Shown here one piece after another: positions 2,052 to 17,699 of a stretch of DNA of 64,000 nt. The stretch lies in the NCBI GenBank assembly GCA_000004985.1, contig GG738857.1. One strand, given 5' to 3'. The DNA is from Naegleria gruberi. Its lineage: Eukaryota. The notes beneath the pieces are model-generated. The model saw only the letters and a list, made by a program, of their open reading frames with translations. It ran no database searches and had not been told where the DNA came from. A program made the translations under genes and the position numbers. Every line of letters starts with the position of its first letter. The first letter of the stretch is position 1.

Positions 2052-5000
2052 TTAGGCATTGTAAATTTTCTCTAAACGATCAACAATTTCTTGAATATTA
2101 GGACGTGTAGAAGGAACGGGAGACCAACTTTGTCTAATTAATTCAGTCAAATCGAAAATTCTTTCGTACTCATCTGGAGAATCGAATTCCTTACACCATT
2201 CTTTGCATTCCTCCAAATCTGTGAATGGAATAATTGGTCTCAAATTATTTTCACAAATTCCCTTGTGAAGTTGATAGGAAGATTCAACATTGCTTGGTTC
2301 TTCTAATCTTAATTTTTGTAAAACTCGTGAGTTTCTACTCATGTATGGATCGGTACATTCGAATAGTACTTGCCAAATGATAATGGAGAAACTGTAAATG
2401 TCGATTGCTCTGGCATCTTCACCAAGTATATCGCTATTACTGGAAATCATTTCAGGACTTAAATAGTAACAGGTTCCTATTTGACTTGTGACAGAAGTTC
2501 TGTAATTGGATAACATCTTGCTGAGACCAAAATCACAAAGCTTACAAACTCCAAATCTGTCAATCAAAATATTGGCAGGTTTCAAATCTCTATGCAAAAT
2601 TGTTGGAGATAATGTATGAAGATAGAGAATTCCATTAGCAACATTTGTCAAAATTTCCAATTTTTGAGTGAGAGAATACTGAACTGATTGATTTTGCATT
2701 TCTGTTACTAAATTATCCAAACTCTTCTCCAAACACTCCATAGCAATGAATCTCTTTGTAGGACTCGAAGAAATTCCGTAAAATGTGATAATGTTCGGAT
2801 GTCTTAATTTCGAGAGAATGATAGCCTCCATGAGGAAATCCTTTTCAGAAATATTCATGTTGTTCATGTCAAATACCTTGACAGCAATAATGTTATTCTT
2901 CCAACGAGTTTGGAATACAGAACCAATTCCTCCTGAACCCAATCTCTTGATTGGTTTGTCCATGTTTAATTGTTCAATTGGAATAATGAATGAAGAATTG
3001 TCAGAGTTGTTAATGTCCATAAATTCAAAGGTTTCTCCAACTTCAGTTTGAGATAGTAATCTTTCGTCCAACATTTGATCCATTTCAATAATTTTCTTTT
3101 GCTTTCTATACTTGGAAAAGAAGATTACCATTGTTAACATGGAGAAACAAAGTAACAATAAAACAAATATACTAAATCCAACAATGGTTCCAATCAAAAC
3201 ACTGTTATGTTCACATTCCTTTCCAAAGCTATTACTGCATTGACAAATATCTGGAGCAACACACAAATTTCCATTGCATGCATCAGCTCCTGATTTTCCA
3301 AAGCAGGTGACCATTCTGCAATCTGTTCCAATATATCCATAGGAGCAGGAGCAAGTATCTGGTTTAAGACATGTTCCACTAGAATTGGAGCATACAGCCG
3401 AACTAGAACTTGAAATGCCAAAACAAACTGGATACTGACATTGATTTCCACTATATTGAGGGGGGCAAGAACAGGTATCACTATCTAAACATATTCCATT
3501 TCCGCTACATACTTTGGAATCCAAACTGGTCCACTCAAAACATTTTGGAATGCATCTAGTTTTCTCTGGATTAAGCACATAATTATTTTCACAGAATGGA
3601 ACTAGTTGTTTCACTACATTATTCAACGAGTCAGATACGAATATCTTTCCAGTATTATCCACAAATGATACGCCTTCTGGCTTTGAGAGAGGAACTTCCA
3701 CTGCTGTCAATGATGATTCAATAAGATAACTGGCAACAATATCGACAACATCAACTGTTCCGTTACCAGCCATTGAATAAATATATCTCTGGCCATTAAA
3801 ATTAAACACTCTTCGTAATCTTCCATTATTCTTATCACAAAAAACAAATTCTTCATAAGTTGGTGGAAGTAACATTATACATGTTGGTGAATTGATATCT
3901 GCATTGATGGCAAGACCATTATCTCCAGAAAATCCAATATTTCCAGTTCCACAAACTGTACTAATTGTTCCATCTTTGGAAGAAATCTTTCGAATTCTAT
4001 GATTGTTGGTATCGCTGAAATAGATATCTTCATTTAGGGGTGAAACTGCAATTCCAGATGGAAATGCCACAGTAGCACTTGTAGCTGGACCATTCTCTCC
4101 ATGGAATCCATAATCTCCAGTTCCTGCAATTGTACTAATAACTCCAGTCATTCCATCAATCTTTCTAATAATATTATTCAAATTATCTGTTATGTAAATG
4201 TTTCCACTTTTTGCTCTGACCATGCTTAGAGGAATAGCAGATGATTGATTGGCTGGAATATTATCACCAAAACCTCCAGAAATGGTTGTTAGTAAATCAT
4301 CCTTAATTGAGTACTTTCTAATCTTGTTATTCGACGTGTCAGCAATATAAATTACTCCATTTCTATAGTCCAATGCCTTTGGATATTTCAATTTGGCAGA
4401 TCTTCCTCGTGATGGTTCTGTTTCTTGAACATCATTGGCTCCACCAATAATCGTCTTGATTATTTTAGAATCTGCCCATCTTATTCTGCTATTGATAGTG
4501 TCAGCTATTGCGATTGGTTTTGGTAATGCACTAGCATACTGATTTTCGGATGAACTATCAGCAGTAGAAACAACAGAATATGGGTGAAAGAATTTTGCCA
4601 TTAATGGATCACCATTGTCACCACTGAAACCAGCTCCGAGTTGTGAGTCACCTGCAGTTACTGAGTACATCACTGGTCCATCACCATCACTAGTAAATCT
4701 CAATCTCTTAATTCGATTATTGTAAGTATCTGCTACATAAAATGCAAAACATTTATCACATCCGTGCACATCATGAGGTGTATTATAGTATCTACTATCA
4801 CTGCTTGCAACTCCCATTCCAGATATGCTAAGGATAGGGAAAATGGAAGATTCGTTCAGAGTGGCATTGAATTTGATAAATCTAATTCTGTGATTTAAAC
4901 TGTCAGCAAAGAGTATACCTTGTTGTTTTACAGGAATGTTAACTATGGTCATTCCTCTTGGCTAATTAATTATCAATTGATTGGTTGGAAAAAATTGTTT

Positions 5001-7044
5001 CATTTCAACTTACCTCATTCAACAGAGATTGTGTTGCATCATTAGAATTTCCATTATATCCAAATTGATCTGGAATACCAGCTAGTATTGTTATTACATT
5101 GGTTTCTAGATTGATTTTTTTGATGGCATGTCTTCCAGTTTCTGAAAATATTAAATATCTCGCTCCAGTGCTCGTCACATAATAAGCAAGACCAGTTGGT
5201 TTCTTCACATTCTTAACAATTACCTTGACATTATTAGTATTATCAATGAGCTTGATATTGTTATTGTATGTGTCAGATACGAAAATACCCATATCTGTGG
5301 CAACAATTCCCTCTGGCTGATTGTAGGTGACTGAGGAGGCATTCATATAAGTGGGCATTCTTGCAGTATTGTTAGGTCTCAAAGCATTTCCCACCACCAA
5401 TGATATTTGTCTTGCTTTTGAATAAATATTTTGGGAAACTCTGATAATGGCATCACTGTAAACTCCACTTTGTTCATTCAAAATGTAATATTCAATTGTG
5501 TCACCATTGACCACTCCAACACTAAGAGACATTGGTTTGGATGACAGGGAATAGTTTAAAGAAGAATCAATATAAGTGGAAGACTCCAAATTGACAAATC
5601 CAGGATTAAGAGTACGAACAGTTCGAGTTGTCAAATCATAATATCTAACTGCTCCAAAGTTTGATTCACTAATAAATAGTACCTTCTCCAATTTGTTTGT
5701 ATTCTCATTTAAATGATAATCGAAAGTAAGACCAGTTGGCTGTCTCAATGGGAACTTTATCCCTTTCATCCCATCCACTCTCGGTATTTGATCGCCATTT
5801 GAAAATACTGGAGAAATCATCTTGGTTTCCAAATTGAGAATTTTGATATTTTTCGAGTCTACCATTAAAACAGACTTTCCATCTGGAGAAATTATAAAAT
5901 TAGAAGAAAAAACAAAATGACAATCAAATGCTTGAGTTATTCCATCTTTGCATTCTTCTGCTGAGGAATCACTTTTTCCTGCCAGTATTTCCAGCTTTAC
6001 GGATCCATCTGTATTATTGATGGTCAACCTTTTCAATAAGCTCGAAGTATCAGTGAAATAAACCATATCCAATTCGTTCATAGTATAAGCTGATAAATAA
6101 GAGGGACAACTATAATCATATTCATCATCATAAGGACAAGTGGACATTGAAACTGGCAGAAGTGGAAATTCATGCCCATACATTGTTGTAATATTACCAT
6201 TCTGGAGAATCTTTCTGAACCTATTGGATCCCCTTTCTGAAATGTAAATCTCATTCTTGTCATTTAGTGAAATACTGTTAGGGGACAATAATGTTGAACT
6301 AATTGCAGGAAATTCGCTATCTAGATAAACTCCAGCACCTCCACAAATTCTATAAACAGTACCATTTTGAATCTTTCTCAGAATATTCAAATCCAGAACG
6401 ATAACATTCGCCTCTTCCACAGAATTCACCACTTTCGGATAAACAACCATATCACTCAATGAAAGGAATTTGATTTCACTTGCTGGAATCACATCTGGGG
6501 CCGCAAAATTCAAATTACCTGCCAGAATTCCAGCAATATGGTCAATAATTCCTGTCTTGGTTCGAATCCTCCTAACAGAAAACAAATCCACCAAATAAAT
6601 CACATCATACAAGTTTCCACTACTTTCGTCCTTTTCTGCAACCACATACAAATGATTCACAAATATAAACGTTGCATTTTTCACTGGTCCTCCATTTCCC
6701 TCAATACCTCTACCAGGAGATTCACTTCCTGTAATAAATTCCTGTTGTCCAGTTACAAAATCCAATTTAGCAATGACAACCTGATTCACGACATAATAAA
6801 ACGTATTTTCATATTGAACGGAAGGAGCTAACCCAACAAGTGAAAAGGTTTTTGTTTCTAATTTTGATGGGTAATCTAATTTTCCAATAATTGATTCTGC
6901 TTGATATTTAACTTGTGATTTTAAGAATCGGATAGTTTCGTTCAAATTACACGTCGAAAAGTGAGAGAAAATCATCAGAAGGCTGATGAATAAAAACATT
7001 CGGCATAGTGAGAATCGATTCTGCCGTAAACATTGTGTTGACAT
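2052..7044 (-). CDS. Receptor-type protein kinase with signal peptide, at least 9 NHL repeats, tenascin-type EGF repeats, one TM helix and a TKL-like Ser/Thr kinase domain. Exons complement(join(2052..4961,5014..7044))
   Basis: ORF 5005..7044 (signal peptide MFLFISLLMIFSHFSTC, NHL motifs such as IYISERGSNRFRKI) ends LLNE immediately before GTAAGT. A 52-nt intron (4962..5013, GTAAGT...AATTAG, phase 0) joins it in frame to ORF 2052..4952. That ORF has NHL repeats (IYIADTSNNKIRKY, IYFSDTNNHRIRKI), Cys-rich EGF repeats (CxCxxGYxGxxC), a TM segment (IVGFSIFVLLLLCFSMLTMVIFF) and a kinase domain (GSGGIGSV, IAVKVF, HRDLKPANILI, DFGLSK, SPEM). Confidence 0.75.
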
Positions 7045-7911
7045 TTTTTTTAAAATGTTCCTGCGGAGTTTATTGTAATGAAACTCTTTATTTCAATGTT
7101 ATTGGAAAATGGAAGATTAAATGGAAAGATTATTGGAAGTTGGATGGAGTAAGTTGTGATCTATTGGAAAGATACTTGTTTGATTGGCGGAAAACAACTC
7201 CTTGATGGACGGGAGCATTATTCTAAAGGGTTTAGTTTCGTTTAGGATATTTAAAGATTGTTGTGAATGAGTGATCTTTTGTGATGTATTCATGACAGTG
7301 TATTGTTGGGTAATTGGTGTGTGATTCTTTTTGGTGACCTTTCGAATAGAAGTTGAAGGTTGTGAATTTTCTTTCGTAAAGAATAGAACAGATTCATAGC
7401 TCTGTATTGAAACTTTCTTCTTTTTAATGACGCTGAACATTGATTTGTTTGGTGTGTACACAACTCGATCAAAATTATAGTTGTGGTCACCCACCATTTT
7501 ACTTTCGTTTCTATTGACTTTATTCGAAAGCTCACTGTGTTTAGTTTGTTGCTTGTCCATTTTTTCTGTGTGTGTTTATTCAAAATCCCAAGTCACCAAG
7601 AATCAATCTGAAAACACACAACAAATCTGTGGAAGAAATAAATCCATTTCCAGATGAAAAAATTTACCAAAATCTAAGAAAAATTAAAAAATACAAAATT
7701 GTAAATTGAAGACTACTTTAAAAGCCATGAAAATTGATGAGAGATTCTTTGTGAAATGATGATCTTACATCTTCGAATACAAAAAGATGGATTCGAATAA
7801 GATTATTGGAAAGTAAAAACTTTCTTGTAATGGAAAGAAATTGACCTATTTGTAAAGATAAATTCTTTATTCAAACTTTACAATAAAATTAATTGCGTTA
7901 TTCGAAACTAT

Positions 7912-8633
7912 TTATCTAACTCTGTAAACCTTAGTGAACTTCAAATAAGCAGAGTAATAACCCATATCTCTTTGACGAACTCCAGTTCTAGAATTTTCAG
8001 CAGAAACAACTTGATTTCCACCAACATAGATACCAACATGCTAAAATATTCGAAACATTATTCGAAAGAAATTAATTTTTTTGTGAAAATTCAATTCAAC
8101 TTACACCTGGTCTGAACAAGATATCACCAACTTCCATTGGTTGTCCAGTAACTTCATAGATATTTCCATTTGGATAAACTCCAGTAGAAGTTGGAACTGT
8201 CTTTCCTTGAGATTTGTAAGCAGTGTAAACTATTTATCCAATAATAAATAATAAAATGGAGAATTGATGCACGATATTCATGAATTATTGATCAATAATT
8301 CATATAATTTCCATTTCCAAAAATACGAAAATTTGTTAATTTTCTAAATATGGAAAGTGTAAAAAAAAACAAACCTAAACCGGAACAATCAAAACATGGA
8401 TTACCAAGTCTATTTTGTTGAGAGTAACATTTACCAACTTGTTGTTGAGCAAATCTGGCAGCATTGACAGCAGCTGGTGAAGCAGTTGAAATGGCATCTG
8501 ACATTTCGTATTCCTTTTCGAAAGTACCCAAGATGGATTCGATAACGGCATCAGATGGGATAGCACTAGCAACAGCAAAAGTAACCAACAATGCGGCAAC
8601 GATTGCGAGAAGAATGACCTTGGAAATTGACAT
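7912..8633 (-). CDS. Secreted NlpC/P60-family peptidase (cell-wall hydrolase-like), 3 exons complement(join(7912..8040,8105..8229,8375..8633))
   Basis: Exon 1 has a signal peptide and the catalytic-Cys motif GNPCFDCSGL. Intron 1 is 145 nt (GTTTGT...AATAG, phase 1) and intron 2 is 64 nt (GTAAGT...TTTTAG, phase 0). The downstream exons restore the NlpC/P60 core (GDILFRPG|HVGIYVGGNQVVSAENSRTGVRQRDM), giving the Cys...His...His arrangement, and end in TAA. Confidence 0.7.
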
Positions 8634-14710: not shown

Positions 14711-17699
14711 ATGGCCGATCACAAAATGGTCTGCAAATTGGGTTTGTGTTTTGAGATGCGAGATTTAAAATTATTTATTAAATGTGTGATGATTACAGGC
14801 TGATAGGAAATATGTGTTGGAAGCTGTTAAACAAAATGGGTTGGCACTTGAAAATGCCGATGAATCTGGAAGCTGTTAAACAAAATGGATTGGCAATTGA
14901 ATTTGCTGATTCATCATTAAAAAAGATAGAGAAATTGTATTGGAATCTGTTAAACAAAATGGATATGCATTTAAATATGCCGATGAGTTATTGAAAAAAG
15001 ATGAAGAGTTTATATTGGAAGTTGTTAAACAAGATGGATTGGCAATTAAACATGCTGATTCATCATTACAAAAAGATAGAGAAATTGTATTGGAAGCTGT
15101 TAAACAAAATGTATATGCACTTAAATATGCAGATTCATCATTGAAAAAAGATAGAGAAATTATATTGAAATCTGTTAAGAAAAATGGATTGACACTTGAA
15201 TTTACTGATTCATCATTGAAGAAAGATAGAGAAATTGTATCGGAAGCTGTTAAACAACATGGATTGGCAATTGAGTTTGCTGATTCATCATTTAAAAAAG
15301 ATAGAGAAATTGTATTGGAAGCTGTTAAGCAAAATGTGTATGCAATTGAATTTGCTGATTCATCATTGAAGAAAGATAGACAATTTGTACTAGAAGCTGT
15401 TACGAAAAATGGATTAGTACTTGAATATGCTGATTCATCATTGAAGAAAGATAGAGAATTTGTATTAGAATCTGTTACGAAAAATGGATATGCATTTCAA
15501 TATGCTGTTTCATCATTTAAAAAAGATAGAGAAATTGTATTGGAAGCTGTTAAACAAAATGGAGCAGCGCTTAAATATGCTGATGAATCAGTTAAGGGAG
15601 ACAGAGAAATTGTATTGGAAGCTGTTAAACAAAATGGATTGGCATTTAAATATATTTATTCATCATTGAAAAAAAATAGAGAAATTATATTGGAAGCTGT
15701 TAAACAAAATGGATCAGCACTTAAACATGCTGATTCATTTTTGAAGAAAGATAGAGAAATTGTATCGGAAGCTGTTAAACAAAATGGATTGGCACTTCAG
15801 TTTGCTGATTCATCATTTAAAAAAGATAGAGAAATTGTATTGGAATCTGTTAAAAAAAATGGATCAGCACTTGAATATGCTGATTCATCATTTAAAAAAG
15901 ATAGAGAATTTATTTATTTGCTATTTAAATTGAACAAAGAAAATGCAAGAAACTTCTCACCATCTATATCCAAAACCATTGAAGAATGCTTAAATATTCA
16001 GAGAAAGCTGTCAAGCAATATAACTGAACAATACTCCAAAATATTTATGGATGAAAAGGATTTATATTATGCTATTGAATTAACAAGTCTCTTTAATCCA
16101 ACACCAAAAGGTACAATATTCAATTTCAATTCTATCTATACACCAATATTTATTGAAAAATTGATTATTTTTCAAATATTGAAACAAATGAACCATTCAG
16201 AATTGTCTAATGATATTATTGCTCTTATTGATTTACAAAGTACCAAAGCTAACTATTATTTATATTGTTTCAGATTGGACAAATTTCTTGAAGATAATCC
16301 CTGTCAATCAACAAGAATGAAAGATTTGAAGAATATTGTGGAACAAGTTGCAACAAACTTTGAAACGTCATTTTATACAAAACAGGAAATTAATGAAATT
16401 ATGATTTTTGCCAACAAGTGGTTTGAAAATGAGCAAACATTTGAAAATTACAAACAAATAATTTGTAAATATAATGAGCTGAGAGGAGATTTATCAAAAG
16501 TATTCAAATCTCTTAATTATTTCTATAATTATTTCAAAAATGATTATGATTTCATTTCAGTATTAGGATATGGAGGTGAAGGTGTTGCATTCAAAGTATT
16601 TCATAAAAGTAGTAAATCATTAAGGGCTTTAAAATTGAAATATGACCCAGAGGAATCTGAAGAATCAACAAAAGAAACCATTAATTTATTGAAAAGAACA
16701 GACATTGAAGGAAAGATCAAATGTTTTGATTGTGAAATTATTCAAAATCATTTATATTCAGTGATGGAACTTGGAGAGGAATCATTATCAAATTACATTT
16801 CAAGAAATAATGAAAGTGAAATTTATAGAAATGGATTCATTATTAAGGAAAAACTAATTGAAATTCTTGATATATTTATCAAAGTATTGAACTCAGTTCA
16901 ATCAATTCATGATCACAATATTTTACACAGAGATTTAGATCCTCAAAATATTGTCAAAGTTCAAGATTTATACAAAATTATTGATTTTGAAACATCAAGA
17001 GTGATCAAGACAGGTAATTCAATTACAATTGCTCGTGGAAAGTTTGCATACATGTCTCCTGAAGTTTCACATGATAATTATTCTGATGATTTATTGAAAA
17101 GTGGTAATGATGAAAAGCTTGCTCACAATGTTGGACAAATTACCATTTCATGTGATATATTTTCATTGGGATGTATTTTGTTGAAATTATTAACCAATTG
17201 TCCTTTGCAACTATGTTCAACATTTCTGAATGATTCAGATGTCTCTAAATATAATGATAATTACTTGTATTTTAGTGGACATGGAAAATATTTCTATACA
17301 GTTGTGACAACAACAGAGGGAGAAATGAAATTACATTATGCAATTGAAAAACTAATCAATGAAACAATTAATCCAGATTTAGGAGTGAATAACATATTGA
17401 TTAGAAGCATTATTAGCATGATTCAAAGAGATTCATCAAAAAGATTGGATTGTTATTCTCACAAGTTAACAATTGAGAATATTTTGAAATTTTTGAAAGG
17501 AGAAATCAAAGATATCACTTTCAATATTGAAAAACAAGTTGGAGAATTGAAGAAAATATCACCATTAAGAAGTTACTCTCAACTTGTAGAGGAAAATACC
17601 AAACTATTAGAAAGAATTAAATTATTGGAAGAGAACTCTTTATTGGAACGAATTAAAATGTTGGAAGAGGAAATAATAAATCTAAAAACAGACCAATAA
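14711..17699 (+). CDS. DUF4116-repeat / atypical protein kinase / coiled-coil family, copy A. The 5' repeat region is disrupted; the main intact ORF is 14940..17699
   Basis: It shares the family 5' structure: ATG at 14711, GTTTGT donor at 14742 and a TTACAG acceptor before GCTGATAGG at 14799. The segment 14860-14935 is out of frame because of a 26-nt deletion plus a 1-nt loss in an A-run, giving three in-frame stops. The ORF from 14940 on has about 13 25-aa repeats (LEAVKQNGxALxYADSSLKKDREIV), a helical linker, a kinase domain (LGYGGEGVAFKV, HRDLDPQN, DFETSR, YMSPEV) and a C-terminal coiled coil (LLERIKMLEEEIINLKTDQ). Confidence 0.6.
14799..15903 (+). repeat. Tandem 75-bp coding repeat array (25-aa DUF4116-like repeats) of family copy A
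   Basis: Visible 75-nt periodicity (gctgttaaacaaaatgg...gattcatcattgaagaaagatagagaaattgtattggaa). Alternative sense frames stay open across the array, which produces spurious ORFs such as 15484..15669. Confidence 0.85.

What the first reader, a model, noticed from the sequence alone, without database searches (positions are those of the whole stretch)
7912..8633. Intron-containing secreted NlpC/P60 peptidase gene, a candidate bacteriolytic enzyme of bacterial ancestry
The mature protein has the canonical bacterial NlpC/P60 core (FDCSGL ... GDILFRPGHVGIYVG ... H). It sits behind a eukaryotic signal peptide and the gene is interrupted by two spliceosomal introns (GTTTGT and GTAAGT donors). NlpC/P60 cell-wall hydrolases of this type are mostly bacterial. 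In phagotrophic protists they are usually laterally acquired and used to digest peptidoglycan. The introns show the gene is integrated in the host genome and is not contamination.
Basis: partly seen in the sequence, partly recalled or inferred. Interest (0 to 1): 0.6.

Follow-up and report, generated by a model that had tools for sequence, protein, structure and literature searches.

The report
Naegleria secreted NlpC/P60 cell-wall peptidase gene
This is a real, already annotated Naegleria gruberi gene with two introns; it encodes a small secreted enzyme of the bacterial and phage cell-wall-cutting NlpC/P60 type, an ordinary example of a bacterivorous protist keeping an anciently borrowed antibacterial enzyme.

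Summary
It has three exons (8633-8375, 8229-8105, 8040-7912) and two GT..AG introns of 145 and 64 nt. The spliced product is 170 aa and is 100% identical to an annotated Naegleria gruberi 'predicted protein' on a 573-kb scaffold.

It matches Pfam NlpC/P60 (E 7.7e-13). The AlphaFold model (domain pLDDT 92-98) superposes on solved NlpC/P60 endopeptidases, including those of Trichomonas vaginalis. Catalytic Cys83 and His129 are present.

The gene is not a recent or Naegleria-specific transfer. It belongs to a eukaryote-type subfamily of at least 39 representatives: N. fowleri, four Willaertia magna paralogues, three from the oxymonad Blattamonas, and many uncultured protists. The subfamily has its own sequence signature, host-like codon usage and lineage-specific introns.

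The nearest non-eukaryotic relatives are Firmicute phage tail lysins and secreted Polyangia (Myxococcota) enzymes. My tree does not resolve the donor.

The most likely function is a secreted or phagosomal peptidoglycan endopeptidase for digesting or killing bacteria. This was not tested. I rate it a new member of a known kind, of modest interest.

The parts
7912..8633 (-). Whole coding span of the NlpC/P60 gene, from ATG at 8633-8631 to stop TAA at 7914-7912
   Evidence: The spliced product is identical to N. gruberi protein P0001.
8375..8633 (-). Exon 1 (259 nt): signal peptide, acidic pro-region, first helix and the Cys box, up to ...FDCSGL + G
   Evidence: GC 0.41. An A-rich leader (aaaaaaaaATG) is also present in L086 and in N. 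fowleri.
8562..8633 (-). Signal peptide, residues 1-24 (MSISKVILLAIVAALLVTFAVASA); cleavage after ASA is inferred
   Evidence: Hydrophobicity scan. AF2 predicts a helix at 3-24. Relatives carry equivalent N-termini.
8472..8561 (-). Short acidic pro-region, residues 25-54, with a predicted helix at 27-46 and the M-S-D-A motif at the place where relatives have [ELS][SA]D[ST]
   Evidence: pLDDT 62-65 and helix 27-46. Motif survey.
8385..8387 (-). Codon TGT for catalytic Cys83 (FDCSGL)
   Evidence: Cys in 107 of 107 homologues. Aligned with the catalytic Cys of 8er5.
8230..8374 (-). Intron 1: 145 nt, GTTTGT...TAG, phase 1. A second in-frame donor, GTTTAG, lies 6 nt upstream.
   Evidence: Absent from Willaertia, N. 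fowleri and L086.
8105..8229 (-). Exon 2 (125 nt): VYTAYKSQGK ... GDILFRPG
8041..8104 (-). Intron 2: 64 nt, GTAAGT...TAG, phase 0, directly before the catalytic His codon
   Evidence: Absent from Willaertia and N. fowleri. L086 has an intron 2 nt away.
7912..8040 (-). Exon 3 (129 nt including the stop): HVGIYVGGNQVVSAENSRTGV ... KVYRVR*
8038..8040 (-). Codon CAT for catalytic His129
   Evidence: His in 106 of 107 homologues.
7996..8004 (-). Codons for Ser141-Ala142-Glu143. Ser141 occupies the third triad position, 12 residues after His. Glu143 co-varies with Asn or Ser at that position.
7866..7871 (-). AATAAA hexamer 41 nt after the stop; a possible polyadenylation signal (tentative)
   Evidence: Read only; not tested.

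Best explanation
This is the single NlpC/P60 (MEROPS C40) gene of the bacterivorous amoeboflagellate Naegleria gruberi. Shown here: the minus-strand gene gives a 170-aa pre-protein once two introns are removed. It has a cleavable-type signal peptide (1-24), a short acidic pro-region (about 25-54) and a 116-residue papain-like NlpC/P60 domain. Cys83 sits at the start of a helix and His129 at the start of a beta-strand. A co-varying cysteine pair (Cys69/Cys80) lies next to the active site. Inferred: the protein enters the secretory pathway, the Cys69-Cys80 disulfide forms, and the pro-region is probably clipped near the M-S-D-A motif. That would release a basic (pI about 9.5) domain of about 13 kDa, either into phagosomes or into the medium. 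There the Cys-His pair would cut peptidoglycan stem peptides, with Ser141 and/or Glu143 standing in for the usual third His. By analogy with MepS, LytE/CwlO and the Trichomonas enzymes, the bond cut is most likely gamma-D-Glu-diamino acid. The result would be to help digest or kill bacterial prey. On evolution: the gene derives from an old transfer of a bacterial or phage tail-lysin NlpC/P60 domain into protists. It has since been inherited, duplicated, re-coded to host codon usage and given lineage-specific introns.
For: Gene model and identity. Family assignment: Pfam PF00877 at 48.8 bits against a cut-off of 23; PDB sequence hits to 8er5, MepS/Spr, LytE, CwlO and RipA; AF2 model with pLDDT 92-98 over residues 51-170; Foldseek top hits 8er5 (TM 0.81, rmsd 2.0), T. 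vaginalis NlpC 6biq/6bim/8ev4, MepS, LytE, CwlO and the diffocin hub hydrolase. Catalytic residues: Cys in 107 of 107 and His in 106 of 107 homologues. Secretion: hydrophobic N-terminus. Cysteine parity across 50 subfamily members: both Cys 29, neither 11, Cys80 plus 1 or 3 extra Cys 9, Cys69 alone 0. Host integration: eukaryotic neighbours and GC3 0.24 against 0.18-0.33 for neighbours and 0.81-0.88 for Polyangia homologues. Old, shared family: one search shows a score gap (85-148 bits, then about 69); one search names N. fowleri and Blattamonas; one search names Willaertia; one search shows eukaryotic neighbours on a 94-kb metagenome contig. Introns at other positions. Signature Y[ST]Q in 32 of 39 members against 6 of 248 others. 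Prokaryotic or phage roots: SH3_3 domains in paralogues; phrog_329 minor tail protein E 9.8e-14 for the Naegleria protein itself; Polyangia are the best named bacterial hits. The precedent for function in protists comes from the Trichomonas and Trepomonas papers.
Against: No enzyme assay, localisation or expression data exist for this protein. No cDNA or RNA-seq was available to me, so the introns rest on comparative evidence and on the existing annotation. The third triad position is Ser141. Ser occurs there in only 3 of 107 homologues in the first search and in 6 of 47 scored subfamily members, so activity could be weakened or altered. Six of 39 subfamily representatives have lost the catalytic Cys, so the family also produces non-catalytic proteins. 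The neighbour-joining tree recovers the eukaryote clade in the point estimate, but with only 12-16% bootstrap, and the sister group is unresolved. The processing site and the disulfide are inferences.
Confidence: 0.75

Rival explanations
1. The protein is a catalytically weakened or inactive peptidoglycan-binding protein (a pseudo-enzyme, receptor or lectin) rather than a hydrolase, because it lacks the canonical third His.
For: Ser141 occupies the third triad position. Six of 39 subfamily representatives have lost the catalytic Cys, so non-catalytic roles do arise in this family.
Against: Cys83, His129 and the surrounding invariant residues (D82, S84, G85, G121, D122, G128, Y133, G135) are all intact. 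Third-position variation is normal in the family: the set includes H, D, E, Q and N, and RipA structures are deposited as C383, H432 and E444 mutants with the same 12-residue His-to-third spacing. Asn or Ser at this position goes with a conserved Glu two residues on, which suggests compensation rather than decay.
Confidence: 0.12
2. The gene is a recent, Naegleria-specific lateral transfer from a bacterium, or bacterial contamination of the assembly.
For: Beyond a few protists, all detectable relatives are bacterial or phage.
Against: It has two spliceosomal-type introns, a 573-kb scaffold, eukaryotic neighbours and host-like GC3. The best bacterial identity is only 36-49%. Relatives at 50-77% identity occur in N. 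fowleri, Willaertia, an environmental sister and other eukaryotes.
Confidence: 0.02
3. The enzyme acts on an endogenous substrate, for example cyst-wall remodelling, or lipid acyl transfer like the LRAT/H-REV107 branch of the NlpC/P60 superfamily, and not on bacterial peptidoglycan.
For: Eukaryotes do have NlpC/P60-superfamily enzymes with non-peptidoglycan substrates (established knowledge: the LRAT/HRASLS family). No substrate was tested here.
Against: No LRAT (PF04970) hit appeared at E<=1. The sequence order is the non-permuted P60 type, with Cys before His. The closest structures are all peptidoglycan endopeptidases or phage lysins. Paralogues carry bacterial SH3b cell-wall-binding domains. 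I know of no peptidoglycan-like polymer in Naegleria (own knowledge).
Confidence: 0.06
4. It works as a defence effector against intracellular or attacking bacteria, analogous to the tick Dae2 immune function, rather than as a digestive enzyme.
For: Naegleria and Willaertia host or resist Legionella-like bacteria (abstracts listed). Willaertia paralogues are fused to cationic amphipathic modules that look like antimicrobial peptides.
Against: Nothing here separates defence from digestion. The biochemical mechanism is the same in both, so this is a variant of the best explanation rather than a true alternative.
Confidence: 0.25

Closest known systems
Trichomonas vaginalis NlpC/P60 enzymes (NlpC_A1/A2, PDB 6bim/6biq; NlpC_B3, 8ev4), laterally acquired DL-endopeptidases
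   Same: A protist-encoded, non-permuted NlpC/P60 domain of prokaryotic ancestry with a predicted secretory route. The folds superpose: Foldseek TM (target-normalised) 0.81 for 8ev4, rmsd 2.3-2.5. The proposed role against bacteria is the same.
   Different: Only 24-26% identity. The Trichomonas enzymes have a Cys-His-His triad and, in clade A, two SH3b domains. The Naegleria protein has Ser at the third position, no SH3b domain and two introns. It belongs to a separate subfamily with a Y[ST]Q signature. Its activity has not been measured.
Bacterial DL-endopeptidases: E. coli MepS/Spr, B. subtilis LytE/CwlO, Clostridium innocuum CI_01448 (8er5)
   Same: The same Pfam family, the same order of catalytic residues and the same fold. 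8er5 is the best sequence and structure match: E 3.9e-9, 33% identity, rmsd 2.0.
   Different: Those are bacterial autolysins or lipoproteins with a third His. This one has a eukaryotic signal peptide, introns, Ser141 and a YSQ motif in place of the bacterial Y-x-W-G-G (0 of 39 against 169 of 248).
Phage tail-associated lysins (PHROG 329 'minor tail protein', PHROG 400 'tail protein', YqbQ-like; diffocin hub hydrolase CD1368, 8v3w_H)
   Same: The Naegleria protein matches phrog_329 over residues 51-169 at E 9.8e-14. Diffocin hub hydrolase is the third-best structural hit. Phage tail protein P0172 shares the YSQ motif and the C-terminal YR motif, and joins the eukaryote clade in 94 of 200 bootstrap replicates.
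   Different: Those are C-terminal modules of large virion proteins of 600-970 aa. Here the domain stands alone behind a signal peptide. The relationship is not statistically resolved.
Secreted NlpC/P60 proteins of Myxococcota (Polyangiaceae, Labilithrix, Byssovorax)
   Same: They are the best-scoring named bacterial relatives: 36-49% identity, and 95-99 bits in the profile search. They share the xCFDCSGL ... GDILWRPGHVGIYVG core, the C-terminal [YF]RP and a cysteine before FDC.
   Different: GC3 of 0.81-0.88 against 0.24. They have YCWGG rather than YSQ, and Asp or His at the third position. They are not the sister group in the NJ tree.
House-dust-mite LytFM and tick/mite Dae2 (bacterial cell-wall amidases or peptidases domesticated by animals)
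   Same: The same theme: a single-domain, secreted enzyme of the papain-like/NlpC-P60 superfamily, acquired from bacteria and kept by a eukaryote. LytFM: abstract. Dae2: my own knowledge of Chou et al. 2015, not retrieved here.
   Different: Different subfamilies and different recipient lineages. Neither appeared among the top sequence hits.

Membership tests
NlpC/P60 (Pfam PF00877; MEROPS C40), P60-like non-permuted branch | Significant match to the family profile above the curated threshold | tested here: met
   PF00877 at 48.8 bits against a cut-off of 23, E 7.7e-13, residues 80-158.
NlpC/P60 (Pfam PF00877; MEROPS C40), P60-like non-permuted branch | Papain-like alpha+beta fold, with the Cys-bearing helix before the His-bearing beta-sheet | tested here: met
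   AF2 model: helix 83-92, then strands 123-126, 129-135, 138-144 and 148-153, with pLDDT 92-98. There are 57 PDB matches at E<=0.001, and the top 50 are NlpC/P60 or phage lysin domains.
NlpC/P60 (Pfam PF00877; MEROPS C40), P60-like non-permuted branch | Catalytic Cys in a D-C-S-G box and catalytic His in a G-H-V-G-I-Y box | tested here: met
   Cys83 and His129 are present. The columns hold Cys in 107 of 107 and His in 106 of 107 homologues.
NlpC/P60 (Pfam PF00877; MEROPS C40), P60-like non-permuted branch | Third polar triad residue (usually His; also Glu, Asp, Asn or Gln) 12 residues after the His | tested here: inconclusive
   The position holds Ser141. Across the 107 homologues it is H 88, D 6, S 3, A 3, Q 2, E 2, N 1. 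Ser is polar but unusual. Glu143 co-varies with Asn or Ser at this position.
NlpC/P60 (Pfam PF00877; MEROPS C40), P60-like non-permuted branch | Peptidoglycan stem-peptide endopeptidase activity | not testable with these tools
   Needs a biochemical assay.
Laterally acquired protist peptidoglycan hydrolases (Trichomonas / Trepomonas type) | Patchy eukaryotic distribution with the closest outgroups bacterial or phage | tested here: met
   Named eukaryotes are limited to Naegleria, Willaertia and Blattamonas. All other named hits are bacterial, and P0172 is a phage tail protein.
Laterally acquired protist peptidoglycan hydrolases (Trichomonas / Trepomonas type) | Phylogeny that robustly nests the eukaryotic sequences inside a bacterial clade | tested here: inconclusive
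   NJ on 108 columns and 287 taxa: eukaryote clade present, bootstrap 12-16%, sister group unresolved. No maximum-likelihood program was available.
Laterally acquired protist peptidoglycan hydrolases (Trichomonas / Trepomonas type) | Integration into the host genome (introns, codon usage, eukaryotic neighbours, secretion signal) | tested here: met
Laterally acquired protist peptidoglycan hydrolases (Trichomonas / Trepomonas type) | [quoted passage not shown] | not testable with these tools
   No transcriptome or assay was available.
LRAT / H-REV107 (PF04970), the eukaryotic permuted NlpC/P60 branch | Profile match and circularly permuted order (His before Cys) | tested here: not met
   No PF04970 hit at E<=1. 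The order is Cys83 before His129.
Type VI amidase effector-derived 'Dae' genes | Membership of a Tae1-4 family | not tested
   No Tae or Dae reference sequences were retrieved. The protein falls in canonical PF00877 and no Tae-type Pfam family appeared. A literature search for Dae plus Naegleria found nothing.

The most novel reading that the evidence does not exclude
The window gene is the minimal member of an undescribed protist effector family: a 'YSQ' NlpC/P60 subfamily found in Heterolobosea, in the oxymonad Blattamonas and in many uncultured eukaryotes. Members would be made as pro-proteins cut at a conserved [E/L/S]-[S/A]-D-[S/T] site just upstream of the catalytic domain. In Willaertia and several uncultured relatives the same site also separates tandem cationic amphipathic modules (+7 charge per 24 residues, hydrophobic moment about 0.6). 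One precursor would therefore deliver membrane-active peptides together with a peptidoglycan hydrolase. The domain may have come from a phage tail lysin, and the triad was rewired from Cys-His-His to Cys-His-(Asn/Ser)+Glu.
Probability: 0.25. Interest if true: 0.55.

Novelty: new member of a known kind. Interest (0 to 1): 0.33.

Why it matters
On its own, the gene adds Naegleria to the list of phagotrophic protists that keep a prokaryote-derived NlpC/P60 hydrolase. That list already includes Trichomonas, Trepomonas and Acanthamoeba, so the concept is established and the gene is already annotated, though only as 'predicted protein'.

The family context gives it modest added value:
- The acquisition is old and shared between distant protist lineages.
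- It carries lineage-specific introns and repeated loss of the catalytic Cys.
- The third catalytic position has shifted.
- Some relatives are fused to modules that look like antimicrobial peptides.

If the enzyme is active, it would be a small, single-domain, basic peptidoglycan hydrolase from a tractable model amoeba. It would be useful for studying how bacterivores dismantle prey, or how Naegleria and Willaertia deal with Legionella-like bacteria.

Tried and rejected
- Literature: searches for NlpC/P60 plus Naegleria, for Dae plus Naegleria, and for Blattamonas or Willaertia plus peptidoglycan or HGT found no paper on this gene or subfamily. The naegleriapore search gave nothing usable on processing sites.
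- cDNA evidence: an exact look-up of P0001 in the contig collection found no record, so there is no independent DNA or cDNA copy to confirm splicing.
- Other copies: tblastn of the protein against the window found no further copy.
- Phylogeny: NJ with bootstraps, with and without the divergent Cys-less members, did not resolve eukaryote monophyly or the sister group. No ML software was available.
- Failed scripts: an hmmalign-based cysteine count mis-mapped the columns and the first regex version failed.
- Contamination and recent transfer were considered and rejected.
- LRAT-type function was rejected.
- Upstream tandem donor: GTTTAG, 6 nt before the annotated donor, would also be in frame, but it deletes the invariant Gly85-Leu86, so it was rejected as the main site.
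- I ran no further search on identifying the organism behind JGI sample 3300062347.
Full report
**1. The observation**

The feature lies on the minus strand. I joined 8633-8375, 8229-8105 and 8040-7912. This gives a 513-nt reading frame and a 170-aa product ending in TAA at 7914-7912.

Intron 1 (8374-8230) is 145 nt, GTTTGT...TAG. Intron 2 (8104-8041) is 64 nt, GTAAGT...TAG. Both introns are 20-21% GC, against 35-41% for the exons. Read unspliced, the frame runs into stops in each intron.

The spliced protein is 100% identical over its full length to 'predicted protein [Naegleria gruberi]' on a 573,072-bp contig (P0001).

I had no cDNA (one search found no independent record), so the intron evidence is comparative. 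The junctions restore FDCSGL|VYTAYK and FRPG|HVGIYVG without gaps, and these stretches are encoded by uninterrupted DNA in Willaertia and N. fowleri.

A second in-frame donor (GTTTAG) lies 6 nt upstream of the intron-1 donor. Using it would delete Gly85-Leu86, and Gly85 is invariant in 107 of 107 homologues.

There is no His after His129. The residue aligned with the third catalytic His of solved enzymes is Ser141.

**2. What the protein is**

- **Sequence family.** Pfam NLPC_P60 scores 48.8 bits against a cut-off of 23. Sequence hits in the PDB are all peptidoglycan endopeptidases: C. innocuum CI_01448 (8er5, E 3.9e-9), Cg1735, MepS/Spr, CwlO, LytE and RipA/RipB.
- **Fold.** An AlphaFold2 model built on 62 homologues has mean pLDDT 88, and 92-98 from residue 51 onward. 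Foldseek against the PDB gives 57 hits at E<=0.001. They are led by 8er5 (target-normalised TM 0.81, rmsd 2.0), the diffocin hub hydrolase, C. difficile autolysins, T. vaginalis NlpC1, NlpC2 and B3, MepS, SagA, LytE and CwlO.
- **Catalytic residues.** Cys83 is conserved in 107 of 107 first-round homologues and His129 in 106 of 107. The third position holds H 88, D 6, S 3, A 3, Q 2, E 2 and N 1. The His-to-third-residue spacing of 12 matches T. vaginalis Cys179-His234-His246. It also matches RipA, whose structures are deposited as C383, H432 and E444 mutants.
- **N-terminus.** MSISKVILLAIVAALLVTFAVASA is a classical signal sequence by hydrophobicity and forms a helix in the model. No other hydrophobic segment exists.
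- **Mature domain.** Residues 55-170 have a computed pI of 9.5 and a mass of 12.8 kDa.

**3. Genomic context**

The window holds only one copy. Its neighbours are typical Naegleria genes: an NHL/EGF receptor kinase (2052-4952), an NHL-repeat protein (5005-7044), a C2-domain protein, a DUF4116 kinase and a Ras/Roc GTPase.

GC3 of the gene is 0.24. That falls within the neighbours' range of 0.18-0.33 and far from the 0.81-0.88 of its Polyangia homologues. Contamination and recent transfer are excluded.

**4. Relatives elsewhere**

An exhaustive phmmer search of 1.84 billion representatives found 4479 relatives at E<=0.001. Scores show a clear step: about 35 proteins at 85-148 bits, then a drop to about 69 bits. 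A profile of this top group (A3) recovers the same set and adds names.

- **Named members.** N. fowleri FDP41_012196 and three Blattamonas nauphoetae (oxymonad) proteins; four Willaertia magna paralogues.
- **Unnamed members.** These also look eukaryotic. Two lie on contigs of 94 and 22 kb from one JGI sample. The 94-kb contig carries a P4-ATPase, subtilase, DCN1, RPL5, UBC, Ras and a mitochondrial carrier, and the 22-kb contig carries MBOAT, WD40 and SH3 genes. Two carry GT..AG introns at positions different from Naegleria's.
- **Signature.** Y[ST]Q follows the first helix in 32 of 39 members against 6 of 248 others. The bacterial Y-x-W-G-G occurs in 0 of 39 against 169 of 248. A C-terminal [YFH]R[P...] occurs in 37 of 39 against 25 of 248.
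- **Tree.** In my neighbour-joining tree (108 columns, 287 sequences) the 39 form one clade, but bootstrap support is only 12-16%. The pairing of the window gene with an environmental sequence (L086) is solid at 198 of 200.

**5. Origin**

- **Polyangia.** Among named bacteria, the best matches are secreted NlpC/P60 proteins of Polyangia (Polyangiaceae, Labilithrix, Byssovorax): 36-49% identity, and 95-99 bits. The scan patterns were derived from an alignment that already contained such sequences, so that ranking is somewhat biased.
- **Phage tail lysins.** In the tree, the sequences that most often join the protist clade are P0172 and P0209 (94 and 45 of 200 replicates). P0172 is a full-length Firmicute phage tail protein: YqbQ-like + glucosaminidase + NlpC/P60, phrog_400 at E 4.5e-88. 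It shares the YSQ motif and the C-terminal YR motif. The Naegleria protein itself matches phrog_329 'minor tail protein' over residues 51-169 at E 9.8e-14.
- **SH3b domains.** Some protist paralogues keep a bacterial SH3_3 domain upstream: W. magna P0108, and P0132 and P0138.

The subfamily therefore has prokaryotic or phage roots, but the donor is unresolved.

Neither N. gruberi intron is present in Willaertia or in the N. fowleri gene. L086 and L004 have introns of their own. So introns were gained after acquisition, lineage by lineage.

It is met only in the narrow sense that Naegleria inherited the gene from a heterolobosean ancestor. The patchy eukaryotic distribution still argues for a transfer at the base of the subfamily, or for several transfers.

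**6. Finer features of the subfamily**

- **Third triad position.** Across 47 scored members it is N 18, H 16, S 6, E 5 and Q 2. Asn or Ser there is almost always followed by Ala-Glu ([NS]AE[NS]), whereas His, Glu or Gln is followed by Ala-Ala. This suggests that Glu143 shares or takes over the orienting role. These counts are not phylogenetically independent.
- **Cysteine parity.** Cys69 and Cys80 are both present in 29 members and both absent in 11. In 9 members Cys80 occurs with 1 or 3 additional cysteines. Cys69 never occurs alone. This fits a disulfide beside the active site, and therefore an oxidising, secretory destination.
- **Upstream motif.** An [E/L/S]-[S/A]-D-[S/T] motif lies 8-12 residues before the domain in roughly 22 of 50 members. 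My strict regex matched 19, and I added a few near-variants by eye. N. gruberi has M-S-D-A.
- **Cationic modules.** The same motif separates tandem cationic amphipathic modules in Willaertia P0109, P0144 and P0002 and in metagenomic P0118 and P0112. These modules carry +7 charge per 24 residues and have a hydrophobic moment of about 0.6. I read the motif as a candidate pro-protein processing site. This is an inference only.
- **Cys loss.** Six of 39 representatives lack the catalytic Cys.

**7. Mechanism**

- **Shown:** the gene structure, the family and fold, an intact Cys/His pair, a signal-type N-terminus and host integration.
- **Inferred:**
  - The protein enters the ER and the signal peptide is cleaved after Ala24.
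  - The Cys69-Cys80 disulfide forms.
  - The acidic pro-region is removed.
  - The protein is delivered to phagosomes or to the medium.
  - Peptidoglycan stem peptides are hydrolysed, most likely at gamma-D-Glu-diamino acid, by analogy with MepS, LytE/CwlO and T. vaginalis NlpC_A1/A2.
- **Rivals:** a weakened or pseudo-enzyme (0.12), an endogenous substrate (0.06), and recent transfer or contamination (0.02). Defence rather than digestion is a variant of the same mechanism.

**8. Comparison with the known, and novelty**

Lateral acquisition of NlpC/P60 by phagotrophic or mucosal protists is established for Trichomonas and Trepomonas. It has been proposed for Acanthamoeba, fungi and mites.

I found no paper in the searchable library that mentions this gene or this subfamily in Naegleria, Willaertia or Blattamonas. 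The protein is annotated only as 'predicted protein', or in UniRef as 'NlpC/P60 domain-containing protein' for the N. fowleri and Blattamonas members.

Verdict: a real feature, correctly read apart from the third His, and a new member of a known kind. Interest is about 0.33. The subfamily-level features deserve a short follow-up: the possible phage-lysin origin, the altered triad, the fusions to peptide-like modules and the loss of the catalytic Cys.

Noticed in passing
L086 (ENA ERZ27315067 k141_891877), about 1300-1450: In the closest relative of the window gene, the invariant GHVGIYVG motif is recovered only if three tiny GT..AG introns (38, 41 and 38 nt) are spliced out. That leaves micro-exons of 10 and 8 nt. 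The third intron has a TACTAAC branch-site-like motif. The first of these introns lies 2 nt from the position of N. gruberi intron 2.
   Followed up: partly
L088 and L089 (N. fowleri GCA_008403515.1), 6001-6532: The annotated N. fowleri model FDP41_012196 (142 aa) splices out the catalytic Cys box. The DNA does encode KVGSCYSQAQRMSNPCYDCSSLVYLAYKSA, but in another frame, with a +1 shift near CTTTGAAAGAC. This is either a real frameshift (a pseudogene) or an assembly error. The locus is present identically on two contigs.
   Followed up: partly
Proteins P0109, P0144, P0002 (Willaertia magna) and P0118, P0112 (metagenome; L087 5569-6774): Tandem cationic amphipathic modules lie upstream of the NlpC/P60 domain, for example KFFKKIGKLFKKALPYLKAGVKEY with +7 charge and hydrophobic moment 0.64. 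Each follows an ESD, EAD or LSE acidic spacer. The arrangement looks like a polyprotein of antimicrobial-peptide-like units plus a hydrolase. One unit gave a weak sub-threshold Pfam Mastoparan_2 hit.
   Followed up: partly
Proteins P0126, P0134, P0135, P0140, P0141, P0230: Six of 39 subfamily representatives have replaced the catalytic Cys (FDASSL, FDSSSF, YDSSSF, FNAAGL, FDASGL, YDSAGL). Four of these (P0126, P0135, P0140, P0230) also gave no match to the His-box pattern. They are probably non-catalytic derivatives.
   Followed up: no
Proteins P0259, P0131, P0263 (Blattamonas nauphoetae) and P0129, P0137, P0162, P0197: A subgroup carries a Cys-rich insert (QCTGRAGECCRLGP) between the YSQ motif and the Cys box. 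The same subfamily thus occurs in an oxymonad (Metamonada) as well as in Heterolobosea. This raises the question of eukaryote-to-eukaryote transfer versus parallel acquisition.
   Followed up: no
window 8374-8380 (minus strand): Two in-frame 5' splice donors lie in tandem, 6 nt apart (GTTTAG|GTTTGT). Using the upstream one would delete the invariant Gly85-Leu86.
   Followed up: partly
window 2052-7044 (minus strand): Two adjacent long single-exon ORFs both carry NHL/teneurin-like repeats. The first (966 aa) also has an EGF-like region and a C-terminal protein kinase domain. They look like a tandem pair of receptor-kinase-type genes.
   Followed up: partly
window 14940-17699 (plus strand): A 919-aa ORF has 12 DUF4116 repeats (E 6.9e-200) fused to a protein kinase domain. 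Its GC3 is only 0.18, the lowest among the genes checked.
   Followed up: no
window 7117-7560 (minus strand): A 147-aa ORF lies between the NHL gene and the NlpC/P60 gene and has no Pfam match. I did not assess whether it is a real gene.
   Followed up: no
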